From Promethearchaeota archaeon (lineage in GTDB: Archaea > Asgardarchaeota > Lokiarchaeia > Sigyniarchaeales > SOKP01), in NCBI GenBank assembly GCA_029838195.1, contig JALGVJ010000014.1, forward strand, positions 32,796-96,795: a DNA stretch of 64,000 nucleotides, written 5' to 3'. The notes beneath the pieces are model-generated. The model was not told where the DNA came from, ran no database searches, and saw only the letters and a list, made by a program, of their open reading frames with translations. Below are positions 12,777-32,436 of the stretch, one piece after another; the stretch's first letter is position 1; every line of letters starts with the position of its first letter. The translations under genes were made by a program, and so were the position numbers.

Positions 12777-12886
12777 TGGGCCGGAGGAGGATCGAACTCC
12801 TGACCTTCGCGGTGTATTCGCGAAGAGAAAAATGAACATCTGTCATTCTCTTTAGCGCGACATCATACCCACTAGACTACCGGCCC
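12777..12886 (-). tRNA. tRNA-Val(TAC) with 37-nt intron at non-canonical position 33/34 (intron 12817..12853)
   Basis: Acceptor GGGCCGG/CCGGCCC-A, anticodon stem TCGCG/CGCGA, spliced loop CT-TAC-AC, T loop TTCGATC; strict BHB (central helix CGCG/CGCG, bulges CT^A and AA^T). Confidence 0.93.
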
Positions 12887-13895: not shown

Positions 13896-14002
13896 GCAGA
13901 CGTAGCCTAGCTGGTAAGACGCCGGCCTTGAGTGCGCATAGGAGAGACCCATGGAAAGCCGGTGCGCGCAAGCGCTCGGGGGTTCGAATCCCTCCGTCTG
14001 CG
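13896..14002 (+). tRNA. tRNA-Ser(TGA) with 24-nt intron at 37/38 (13933..13956)
   Basis: GCAGACG/CGTCTGC-G, CCGGC-CTTGAG..A-GCCGG, long variable arm, GGGGG-TTCGAAT-CCCTC. Confidence 0.88.
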
Positions 14003-14159: not shown

Positions 14160-14258
14160 GGGCTATTGGCGCAGGCAGGTAGCGCAGCAGGCTCTTAAGA
14201 GTTTTTAAATCTTGGGGTCACCTGACGGTCGGGGGTTCGAATCCCTCATAGCCCGCCA
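14160..14258 (+). tRNA. tRNA-Lys(CTT) with 22-nt intron at 37/38 (14198..14219), CCA encoded
   Basis: GGGCTAT/ATAGCCC-G-CCA, loop CT-CTT-A^A; BHB with CTCT/GGGG helix and bulges TA^A and TC^A. Confidence 0.92.
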
Positions 14259-25923: not shown

Positions 25924-27586
25924 TTAAATCAATTTTTTTGAAACATAAGGACCATCTTTTTGATATCCTTGGTTATAAAACCATTGTTTAACGCCTAATC
26001 CACTAATTACAGCTATTTTTTTTAAACCAAATTCTTCTTTTGAAATTTTTTCTGCTTGTTTTAATAATGTTTTTCCGAGACCTTTGTGTTGGATTTGACC
26101 TTGTTCGCGTGGCGGGGCACCCCAAGGAACTAACATGCCAACGATCTTGATTTCTCGCACGATAGAAGTGTTGCCATCATTTAATTCCTTTCTATGTGCT
26201 TTTTCAGACGGTATTCTCAATCTTAAATAGCCTAATAAGCACGTTCTTTTAATGTCTTCATGAGAGAGAAAAATTTCTTTACCTTCTGAGGCATCATACT
26301 CGTAGCTTAATAACTTAATTTCATTTAAAAGCGCAGCATTGTCTTGATATTTAGGGGTAAGATATCCTAATTCTCTACACCTAATACAACGGCATGAAGC
26401 ATTTTTTTCTTTTAATTTCTCATGGATTAACTGTCTTAAGTTGCTTTTTTTACAGCCCGCTTGAATTAAATAGGCAGGGATATCTCGCATTATTCTCTGA
26501 ATTCTAATATAAGGAGGGAGAGTTTTTTTCACAGACGCTAATAGATCTATTAATTTTTCTTCCGAATAAGGCACATATTTTCCTTTTTTCCACCAAGAAT
26601 ATAACTCAGTTCCTTGAATCACTAAAGTAGGATAGATTTTTAACATATCAGGTCTATAATTAGGATCACTAAATAGTGTTTGGAACATCTCAAGATCTTT
26701 CTGAAGCGAAGAGCCAGGCAAATTGGGCATTACATGAAGATTTACTTTGAATCCAGCATCTTTAGCTATTCGAATTGCTTCAATAGAATCGGCAGTAGAA
26801 TGGCCTCTTTTTATTAATTTATAAATATCATCATAAACGGTTTGCACGCCGATTTCTACTCTTGTCGTACCATAATGAAGCATTAAATCAACATGTTCTT
26901 CCTTGCAGTAATCCGGTCTTGTTTCAATTGTCAATCCAACTAATCTTTTACGTGAACGTTCCGCTTTTTTTTTTGCTTCCTCTAATGAAGTCGTATTTTC
27001 CCCGATTATTCCTTCTAAAGCCCCTTTAACAAAATTTTCCTGATATGAGTGATCTGTCGATAAGAAGGTCCCTCCCATTACGATGAGCTCAATTTTTTAT
27101 GGTGATCCAGGGCATGTCCCGAATCAAGTCCACATCATGACCGATGGCGTCTAAATCAGAAATTCGAGAAAGAACTTGTTCCTTAGGGTCATAATTACAA
27201 TAAATCGACCTCATGGCTGCCGGTTCTCTTCCCGTATATGATTTAGCAACTTTTTCTCCAGGTTGGGAGTGGACACCCGGACAATAAACACATTCACCCG
27301 GACATAGCAAGGGTTTTGTCATGATTGCGATGACCGTTACACCCGAAAGCGTTCTCGTTGAGCGTCTTTTCAGTAATTTTCGTAAAATTTTTTTTTCTTC
27401 TTCAGACGCATGACTCAAGATGGTAGCATTTTTGATGACTTTTGGATAGTGATACTTTTTACCAATCTTACCCTTGAGATTAGTGATTTTGCTTTTAGAA
27501 AAATTGGGTTTCTTAATTAAAACTTCAATTATTTCCCGTGCTATTTTATTTTCCAAATTTAAACTATTATTATCTTTTACATCCAT
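25924..27586 (-). CDS. elp3: tRNA U34 acetyltransferase Elp3 (radical SAM + GNAT), two exons: join(27586..27128, 27096..25924), 543 aa
   Basis: RTLSGV..IAIMTKP, CPGECVYCPG, KSYTGREPAAMR in exon 1; MGGTF, TIETRPD, RVEIGVQ, KIYPTLV, QHKGLG in exon 2; removing 31 nt gives GHDVD-KIELIVMGGTF. Confidence 0.92.
27097..27127 (-). other. Predicted 31-nt BHB-type intron in elp3 mRNA
   Basis: Central helix GTGG/CCAT, bulges AC^T and AA^A, inner helix TGATTC/GGATCA plus GGG/CCC; excision restores the frame. Confidence 0.85.
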
Positions 27587-31737: not shown

Positions 31738-32436
31738 TCATAAATAATCGGAGATTTTACGATTATAGAGCTCTTCATCTAATAATTTCTTGATCGTCCT
31801 CCAACTTTTCCTCGCAAAACTAGGAATTTTTTTGTGAATTCGAATATAATTTCTTAAAAATTCAATCGTTTTAGCATCTGAGGGATATCCCGAACCAATT
31901 GGGCCATATTTTTTTTTTAATTCGTCAATTAAATAATCTCGCATTTCTTTAGCTAAAATAGATGCTGCAGAAACAATAGGAAAGAGATCGTCTGCTTTAT
32001 GTTTAGAAACAAGTTCCTTGGGACGGAAATTTAAAGTGTTTAATATTGATTGCCCAAATCTCTCCTCATTCACGTCAGCAGCGTCAATATAAATAATATC
32101 CGGTTTTAATTCATTAATAATGGATTTTATCTTGAGTTCCTCAAGTTGATTTAATGAAAGCTTATTTTCATATCGAGCATCAATTTCTTTAGGTGAAACG
32201 ATTGAAAAAGCATGCGAATGGCAGTTGATTTTTAATATTTCTAAAAAACCTTGTCGTTTTTTTTTTGTTAATTTTTTTGAATCTTTAATCTCAAGTTCAT
32301 ATAAAAAGTCCAATTTGGACTTTAGAAAACAAATTCCACAGATGACCAGAGGACCTATAACGGAGCCTTTTGGGGCCAGATTCTAACTGAATCTTGCTCT
32401 CCCGGCCTCATCAATTCCGCATACTATCTCCGTCAT
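31738..32436 (-). CDS. rnhB: Ribonuclease HII, two exons: join(32436..32399, 32368..31738), 222 aa
   Basis: Exon 1 MTEIVCGIDEAG is missed by the ORF track; the spliced product reads GIDEAGRGSVIGPLV; downstream KDSKKL, KAD...VSAASILAK, GSGYPSD, RKSW. Confidence 0.92.
32369..32398 (-). other. Predicted 30-nt BHB-type intron in rnhB mRNA (contains in-frame TAG)
   Basis: Bulges AG^A and AA^A, central helix GGG/CCC (+C.A), inner helix GC/GC + AGATTC/GAATCT; excision restores DEAGRG. Confidence 0.83.

What the first reader, a model, noticed from the sequence alone, without database searches (positions are those of the whole stretch)
32369..32398. Second BHB-like mRNA intron, in the catalytic DEAGRG motif of RNase HII
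Seen (minus strand): GAG GCC GGG AG^AGCAAGATTCAGTTAGAATCTGGCCCCAAA^A GGC TCC. The 30-nt insert carries an in-frame TAG in its hairpin loop and separates the catalytic D/E residues from the rest of the enzyme. It forms bulges AGA and AAA around GGG/CCC (fourth pair C.A, so a relaxed motif). Standard cleavage restores GIDEAGRGSVIGPLV (222 aa). Gene callers would report an N-terminally truncated protein.
Basis: partly seen in the sequence, partly recalled or inferred. Interest (0 to 1): 0.9.

Follow-up and report, generated by a model that had tools for sequence, protein, structure and literature searches.

The report
tRNA-type mini-intron splitting Asgard RNase HII
The only RNase HII gene of this Asgard archaeon is broken inside its active-site codons by a 30-base insert shaped like the introns archaea cut out of tRNAs, so its messenger RNA almost certainly has to be cut and rejoined, something the papers I could search document inside a coding sequence for only one other archaeal gene; no spliced RNA has been seen here.

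Summary
Confirmed. Window 32369-32398 (minus strand) is a 30-nt insert with an in-frame TAG after the second base of the Arg codon of DEAGRG in the single rnhB of a Promethearchaeia (Lokiarchaeia) genome; removal gives a 222-aa RNase HII. In the family, 83 genomes carry a 28-31-nt insert at this site and 43 lack it exactly. Stops differ (TAA/TAG/TGA), four lengths shift the frame, the helix and hairpin covary, exons are under purifying selection (dN/dS 0.16), and cutting after the second bulge base restores EAGRG in 82/83. Seventeen distant archaeal rnhB genes (Micrarchaeia, Thermoplasmatales, others) have 26-38-nt inserts at the same base, all with a full 4-bp helix. The genome encodes a broad-specificity-type EndA and RtcB. 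Best reading (0.9): an EndA/RtcB-spliced BHB mRNA intron, like cbf5. Spread looks homing-like: presence switches together with a 36-nt flanking patch, and 5/17 distant carriers have a LAGLIDADG gene just upstream, which this class lacks. elp3, tfe, rpl11 and an aldolase gene here are interrupted likewise. No RNA evidence obtained. The scan noted this rnhB intron and its endonuclease partner before, on other genomes.

The parts
32399..32436 (-). rnhB exon 1 (38 nt): start codon to the first two bases of the Arg13 codon; holds Asp9 and Glu10
   Evidence: D9 and E10 invariant in 80/80 intron-bearing copies
32369..32398 (-). 30-nt BHB-type intron
31738..32368 (-). rnhB exon 2 (631 nt with stop)
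   Evidence: TIGR00729 positions 10-207, 187.7 bits over cut-off 123.3; T. kodakarensis-type RNase HII structures E 1e-50
32401..32404 (-). central helix, exon strand (CGGG)
32398..32400 (-). 5' bulge AGA; predicted cut after its second base
32375..32397 (-). 23-nt intron hairpin with 5-nt loop
32383..32385 (-). in-frame TAG that ends translation of the unspliced RNA after 17 codons
32371..32374 (-). central helix, intron strand (CCCA); outermost pair is a C.A mismatch
32368..32370 (-). 3' bulge AAA; predicted cut after its second base
27097..27127 (-). companion 31-nt BHB-type intron in elp3 (separate gene, same mechanism)
   Evidence: joined frame 543 aa, the two halves match ELP3 positions 2-137 and 142-522
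60583..61890 (+). rtcB RNA ligase gene (candidate joining enzyme), matched part
   Evidence: PF01139, 553 bits, no stops

Best explanation
The insert is an archaeal bulge-helix-bulge mRNA intron. The rnhB transcript folds so that four exon-1 bases pair with four bases near the intron's 3' end, between two 3-nt bulges. The cell's (alpha-beta)2 tRNA splicing endonuclease cuts after the second base of each bulge, RtcB joins the exons, the Arg codon is rebuilt (AG+A) and a 222-aa RNase HII with all its acidic active-site residues is made. Unspliced RNA gives a 17-residue peptide. SHOWN: insert, fold, conservation, covariation, register, selection on the exons, presence of the enzymes. INFERRED: the cutting and joining themselves. 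Second, weaker layer (about 0.55 on its own): the intron spreads as DNA by homing. It sits in the probable target of a free-standing LAGLIDADG endonuclease whose gene abuts rnhB in other archaea; in this Lokiarchaeia family it persists without that gene, fixed because only exact loss is tolerated.
For: 83 family genomes with a 28-31-nt insert at the same base, 43 without any scar. All 83 stop translation; first stop TAA 71, TAG 8, TGA 4; lengths 28, 29, 29, 31 shift the frame. Helix 4/4 paired in 62, 3/4 in 21, never fewer; 93.7% paired against 24-50% when slid; innermost pair seen as U-G, C-G, G-C and U-A. RNAalifold finds helix, bulge and hairpin unprompted; 60 two-sided changes against 14 in shuffles, 0/500 (kin are not independent). 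Cut after the second bulge base restores EAGRG in 82/83; shifts of -1, -2, -3, +2, +3 in at most 3; +1 in 79. dN/dS 0.156 in intron-bearing pairs, 0.161 in intron-free pairs; D9, E10, D108, D139 invariant. A metagenome search that asked only for the exon codons and a gap found 17 distant rnhB genes with 26-38-nt inserts of unrelated sequence: 17/17 have all four helix pairs, 13 shift the frame. Single rnhB in the genome. EndA alpha with catalytic Tyr/His/Lys and the specificity loop; best solved match is Aeropyrum pernix EndA, E 6e-36; RtcB in the same window. Homing layer: intron-free L354 and intron-bearing G038 are 95% identical with 10/190 synonymous differences elsewhere, yet 12 consecutive codons round the junction all differ; at least 12 changes of state on the tree, 7 forced by strong branches; a LAGLIDADG plus winged-helix gene lies directly upstream in 5 of the 17 distant carriers; 6/6 homologues of that gene looked up abut rnhB and 5 of the 6 rnhB genes carry the intron.
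Against: No spliced RNA, excised intron or protein was observed; nothing biochemical was tested. In this genome the motif is relaxed (C.A mismatch, weak outer helix; the strict register is 2.4 kcal/mol above the minimum fold). The genome also has an RNase HI-like gene, so rnhB may not be essential. For the homing layer: the endonuclease family was not found in 161 genomes of the class, the recoded patch rests on one close pair plus a trend, and its direction (gain or loss) is not fixed.
Confidence: 0.9

Rival explanations
1. Translational recoding: the ribosome reads through the stop (pyrrolysine, selenocysteine or a reassigned TAG), shifts frame, or hops over the hairpin as in T4 gene 60.
For: 79 of 83 family inserts are 30 nt and so in frame; the stop lies on a hairpin; the genome has a tRNA-Sec.
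Against: All three stop codons occur, at different positions and often twice; four family inserts and 13 of 17 distant ones shift the frame in both directions; no PylS over cut-off; TAG ends 154 long frames in this genome; take-off and landing codons match in 1 of 83; ten extra unconserved residues would sit inside the active-site motif; recoding does not explain pairing between exon and insert.
Confidence: 0.03
2. The gene is dead or works as a shortened protein started inside or after the insert; the hairpin is an insertion scar.
For: Gene callers give 191-213-aa products; 41 of 83 introns hold an in-frame ATG open to exon 2; an RNase HI-like gene could cover part of the function.
Against: Exon 1 residues D9 and E10 are invariant in all intron-bearing copies, which makes no sense if exon 1 is not translated with exon 2; dN/dS equals that of intact copies; this genome's intron has no internal ATG; a product without the first two acidic residues should be inactive (own knowledge of RNase HII: Asp7, Glu8, Asp105, Asp135 in T. 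kodakarensis).
Confidence: 0.03
3. The insert is removed from the RNA (or DNA) exactly as predicted, but by a route other than EndA plus RtcB, such as another nuclease or DNA excision.
For: The motif here is relaxed; no enzyme was tested.
Against: The conserved geometry (4-bp helix, two 3-nt bulges, cut after base 2) is the EndA substrate; 30 nt is too short for a group I or II ribozyme and Rfam finds none; no repeats at the ends; no DNA contig skipped the insert.
Confidence: 0.04

Closest known systems
cbf5 (pseudouridine synthase) pre-mRNA intron of Desulfurococcales and Sulfolobales (Watanabe 2002; Yoshinari 2006; Yokobori 2009, PMC2738675)
   Same: Short (16-44 nt there, 26-43 nt here) intron inside a coding sequence, BHB or relaxed BHB at the borders, hetero-oligomeric EndA in the host, exact lineage-specific absence, missed by gene callers.
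   Different: Other gene (rnhB), other lineages (Asgard, also Micrarchaeia, Thermoplasmatales and Nanoarchaeota-type contigs); several such genes per genome here; patchy recurrence at one base across phyla, a switched flanking patch and a neighbouring endonuclease gene, none described for cbf5 in that paper; splicing proven for cbf5, not here.
BHB intron in the 5' UTR of Haloferax volcanii HVO_1309 (Schwarz 2020, PMC7714728)
   Same: mRNA substrate of the tRNA splicing endonuclease.
   Different: That one is outside the coding sequence; this one splits an active-site codon, so splicing is needed for any enzyme.
Non-canonical tRNA introns of Asgard archaea (bioRxiv 10.64898/2026.10.13.758758)
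   Same: Same motif, same enzyme type, repeated gains in Asgard lineages, not yet shown spliced in a cell.
   Different: That study covers tRNA genes only (no mention of mRNA or cbf5) and found no general route of arrival; here the host is a protein gene and there is a candidate route.
Collaborative homing of phage group I introns with free-standing endonucleases (T3/T7-like phages, cyanophage; PMC2988022, PMC10448857)
   Same: Endonuclease-free intron in a highly conserved motif, endonuclease gene next to the host gene, flanking exon sequence changing along with the intron.
   Different: The passenger is a protein-spliced 30-nt BHB intron on an archaeal chromosome, not a ribozyme in a phage; the endonuclease is LAGLIDADG plus two winged helices; it is absent from this genome's class; cutting not shown.

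Membership tests
Archaeal BHB (EndA-type) intron | 4-bp central helix between exon and intron | tested here: met
   3/4 in this genome (relaxed); 4/4 in 62 and 3/4 in 21 of 83 relatives; 4/4 in 17/17 distant copies; slid controls 24-50%
Archaeal BHB (EndA-type) intron | Two 3-nt bulges on opposite strands, cut after the second base of each | tested here: met
   Register test: EAGRG restored in 82/83 at the predicted cut, 79 at +1, at most 3 elsewhere; consensus fold leaves both bulges open
Archaeal BHB (EndA-type) intron | Flanking helices (intron stem and exon-exon stem); relaxed motifs keep only one | tested here: met
   Intron stem 88% paired, 8 of 9 pairs with two-sided changes; exon-exon stem weak and not covarying, so a relaxed motif
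Archaeal BHB (EndA-type) intron | Exact removal restores the host gene; relatives lack it without a scar | tested here: met
   222-aa frame; 43 family and 20 other class genomes uninterrupted
Archaeal BHB (EndA-type) intron | Host encodes EndA able to cut relaxed motifs, and a ligase | tested here: met
   Alpha and beta paralogues, catalytic triad and specificity loop (PMC5829648 reports this type for Asgard); RtcB. Sequence evidence only.
Archaeal BHB (EndA-type) intron | Spliced RNA made in the cell by EndA cleavage and ligation | not testable with these tools
   No RNA run holds this stretch
Collaborative-homing intron | Free-standing homing endonuclease gene beside the host gene | tested here: not met
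   Not in this genome nor in 161 genomes of the class; met in 5 of 17 distant carriers
Collaborative-homing intron | Co-conversion of flanking exon sequence with gain of the intron | tested here: inconclusive
   12 consecutive changed codons in one 95%-identical pair and a matching trend; direction unknown; escape of intron-free alleles from cutting would look similar
Collaborative-homing intron | Endonuclease cuts the intron-free site and spares the intron-bearing one | not testable with these tools
   LAGLIDADG fold and both acidic motif residues are kept, activity untested
Group I or II self-splicing intron | Ribozyme core of well over 100 nt | tested here: not met
   30 nt; Rfam finds only three tRNAs in the window
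Pyrrolysine or stop-codon reassignment | One conserved stop codon at a fixed position, with decoding machinery | tested here: not met
   Mixed stops and frameshifting lengths; no PylS

The most novel reading that the evidence does not exclude
Probability: 0.5. Interest if true: 0.88.

Novelty: new variant of a known kind. Interest (0 to 1): 0.75.

Why it matters
Archaeal coding genes are treated as intron-free apart from cbf5. Here a single-copy DNA-maintenance gene in an Asgard lineage, and at least four other genes of the same genome, appear to need splicing by the tRNA machinery. That changes annotation (two thirds of the nearest database RNase HII entries lack their catalytic start), puts these genes under possible control by EndA/RtcB, gives a prokaryotic parallel to IRE1/RtcB-type mRNA splicing (own knowledge), and offers a testable answer to the open question of how BHB introns arrive: homing with a neighbouring endonuclease. 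Both parts can be tested with a 50-nt RNA, a recombinant EndA and a short DNA target.

Tried and rejected
No RNA holder listed for the region; the four DNA runs laid show no joint. The joined form typical of the largest intron-bearing genus was not found in the metagenome contigs, and no full-length database protein was near-identical to an intron-bearing copy: blanks, not evidence. P0212 looked like a spliced form but is an intron-free genome. A pattern for the interrupted motif over 400 Asgard genomes rang only in this family; the one outside hit is not an Arg codon and looks like chance; the pattern is strict, so this is 'not found with this query'. The one viral-contig hit was chance. A de novo genome scan for BHB plus joined frames gave 17,047 raw candidates and is useless unfiltered; my filters were tuned knowing rnhB and elp3, so the 19 survivors are neither a census nor an unbiased ranking; seven further survivors that I translated did not look like known genes. 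Single-sequence folding is only weakly significant. The sigma-70 promoter scan does not suit archaea. Three out-of-family loci (G136, G137, G139) were not parsed; their HMM matches had no stops. Paper searches found no report of an rnhB intron or of Asgard mRNA introns; the library lacks most subscription papers, and Yokobori 2009 cites predictions of introns in other protein genes that I could not read. The search for a citation on RNase HII catalytic residues failed. Searches were input slips.

Full report
Observation. The minus strand carries rnhB from 32436 to 31738. Read straight through, the frame gives the start of the RNase HII motif (GIDEAGR), ten extra codons with a TAG, and then the rest (GSVIGPLV). 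Removing 32398-32369 gives a 222-aa frame; exon 2 matches TIGR00729 from position 10 to the end and solved archaeal RNase HII structures at E 1e-50. It is the only rnhB in a 96.6% complete genome. Relatives are labelled Promethearchaeota/Promethearchaeia, so this is a Lokiarchaeia-type Asgard archaeon. The insert is real: a raw-run contig matches it without difference, a second assembly has it letter for letter, and an 88%-identical relative keeps the 23-nt hairpin unchanged although 27% of fourfold sites differ.

Anatomy. CGGG at the end of exon 1 faces CCCA near the intron's end (three G-C pairs, one C.A mismatch); AGA and AAA are the two bulges; the 23 nt between form a hairpin with a 5-nt loop. 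The minimum-energy fold slips to a 3-bp helix and a 4-nt 3' bulge, 2.4 kcal/mol below the strict register, so this copy is a relaxed motif. On its own the fold is only modestly better than shuffled sequence; the argument is comparative.

Family census. I read the site in 126 genomes of the family: 83 have an insert of 28-31 nt after the second base of the Arg codon, 43 have none and no scar; 20 genomes from other families of the class are uninterrupted. All 83 inserts stop translation, by TAA (71), TAG (8) or TGA (4), and four shift the frame. The central helix has four pairs in 62 and three in 21; slid by 1-4 bases it drops from 94% to 24-50% paired. RNAalifold recovers helix, bulge and hairpin without being told, and two-sided changes number 60 against 14 in shuffles (relatedness inflates this, the slid controls do not share that fault). 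Because the bulge letters vary, relatives fix the cut: after the second bulge base EAGRG is restored in 82 of 83; one base later in 79; anywhere else in at most 3. That is the EndA register. The exons are healthy: dN/dS 0.156 with the intron, 0.161 without, and the acidic residues D9, E10, D108 and D139 are invariant.

Distant copies. A metagenome search that specified only the flanking codons and a gap returned 25 rnhB genes with an insert at this same base. Seventeen lie far outside the family (38-55% identity, 29-59% G+C); neighbouring genes point to Micrarchaeia and Thermoplasmatales for three of them, and the rest were not placed. Their inserts are 26-38 nt, unrelated in sequence, 13 shift the frame, and all 17 form the full 4-bp helix, with seven or more different exon strands matched by their complements. 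Since the helix was not part of the query, this is the cleanest test of the motif. Within 400 Asgard genomes the strict pattern rang only in this family.

Machinery. The genome has two full EndA paralogues and a fragment. One keeps the catalytic Tyr, His and Lys and the N-terminal loop with its Lys; its best solved match is the Aeropyrum pernix enzyme, the type that Kaneta 2018 (PMC5829648) reports for Asgard archaea and ties to cleavage of relaxed motifs. RtcB lies in this window. Three tRNA genes in the window carry introns. There is no PylS.

Mechanism. Shown: insert, fold, conservation, covariation, register, selection, enzymes present. Inferred: EndA cuts after base 2 of each bulge, RtcB joins AG to A, Arg13 is rebuilt and the active site is whole. 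Unspliced RNA gives 17 residues; a restart downstream would lack D9 and E10. About half of the family's introns (41 of 83) hold an in-frame ATG open to exon 2, which is what gene callers use: 79 of the 120 nearest database proteins lack the motif and this gene is on record as 191 aa. Whether that short form is ever made is unknown; this genome's intron has no such ATG. Confidence in splicing 0.9; no RNA could be had.

Rivals. Readthrough or recoding fails on mixed stops, frameshifting lengths in both directions and unmatched take-off and landing codons. A pseudogene fails on dN/dS and invariant exon-1 residues. An artefact fails on 100 independent genomes and contigs. A ribozyme fails on size.

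How it spreads. On the protein tree the intron needs at least 12 changes of state, 7 forced by strong branches (quick tree, one gene, gain and loss not told apart). One pair is telling: intron-free L354 and intron-bearing G038 are 95% identical, with 10 of 190 synonymous differences over the gene, but 12 consecutive codons round the junction (36 nt, 11 of them synonymous) all differ. Loss through a cDNA would leave the codons alone; a DNA patch moved by recombination, or escape of the intron-free allele from a nuclease, would not. Across pairs, near-site synonymous difference is low among intron carriers and raised among intron-free copies. In 5 of the 17 distant carriers a 340-aa gene sits directly upstream of rnhB; its model (pLDDT 92.5) matches LAGLIDADG endonucleases such as I-DmoI, with two winged helices behind. 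Six of six homologues looked up abut rnhB, and five of those rnhB genes carry a 22-43-nt BHB intron. This works like collaborative homing in phages (PMC2988022, PMC10448857). It is not a member here: the endonuclease was not found in this genome or its class. My reading is an orphaned passenger; about 0.55.

Not alone. elp3 in this window has a 31-nt insert with a full helix whose removal joins the two ELP3 halves into 543 aa. A filtered scan also gave tfe (TFE alpha, contig C69), an aldolase (C90) and rpl11 (C47); family models confirm a stop inside the first two and a missing start in the third. This is a floor, not a census.

Known and new. Papers I could search give cbf5 as the one confirmed intron inside an archaeal coding sequence (PMC2738675, PMC7714728), a Haloferax 5' UTR case, and heavy tRNA interruption in Asgard archaea with the route of arrival left open (bioRxiv 10.64898/2026.10.13.758758). 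None mentions rnhB or Asgard mRNA introns. Earlier notes of this scan describe the same rnhB intron in other genomes, the endonuclease partner, and joined RNA contigs for other genes; they are unchecked AI notes and I count them as leads only.

Verdict. A real, conserved, very probably EndA-spliced mRNA intron in an active-site codon of an Asgard gene; a new variant of the cbf5 kind, with signs of homing-like mobility. Interest 0.75.

Noticed in passing
window 27097-27127 (-): 31-nt BHB insert in elp3 (helix GTGG/CCAT, bulges ACT and AAA); removal gives a 543-aa Elp3.
   Followed up: partly
G000:C69:44487-44516 (-): 30-nt BHB-like insert with a TGA in the TFE alpha gene; removal restores the STGW motif.
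   Followed up: partly
G000:C90:21989-22018 (-): 30-nt BHB-like insert with a TGA in a DhnA/LsrF-type aldolase gene, right after the DHG motif.
   Followed up: partly
G000:C47:5651-5678 (-): 28-nt frameshifting BHB-like insert in the only rpl11 gene.
   Followed up: partly
window 12777-12886 (-), 13896-14002 (+), 14160-14255 (+): Three tRNA genes, each with an insert in the anticodon arm; ARAGORN finds only 16 tRNA genes in the whole 4.5-Mb genome, which suggests many hidden tRNA introns.
   Followed up: no
L354:356-394 against G038 (L026): Twelve consecutive codons round the intron site differ between two otherwise near-identical genes, one with and one without the intron.
   Followed up: yes
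L250:503-1564 (-): Here the LAGLIDADG-winged-helix frame runs in frame into rnhB exon 1 and ends at the stop inside the intron; splicing would give an endonuclease-RNase HII fusion unless translation also starts at rnhB.
   Followed up: no
L286, L352, L318, L292, L355-L360: A family of at least 440 LAGLIDADG plus double winged-helix proteins (Woesearchaeota, Pacearchaeota, Thermoplasmata labels) that abut the start of rnhB in all 11 loci seen; L357 has the gene but no intron and a DDAGRG motif.
   Followed up: partly
intron hairpin across the family (alignment A1 columns 23 and 29): The loop-closing C-G pair is almost invariant (48 C-G, 2 U-G of 50) and stem letters change more slowly than fourfold sites, beyond what pairing alone seems to need.
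   Followed up: partly
exon codons next to the intron: Glu is GAG in 82 of 83 intron carriers but 27 of 43 intron-free copies, and the Gly before the cut is never GGA in carriers (0 of 83 against 18 of 43).
   Followed up: partly
G000:C53:22042-22209 (-): A third, short EndA-like match (109-aa frame), role unknown.
   Followed up: no
G000:C28:93896-94225 (+): RNase HI-like gene (PF13456), so rnhB is not the only RNase H-type gene.
   Followed up: no
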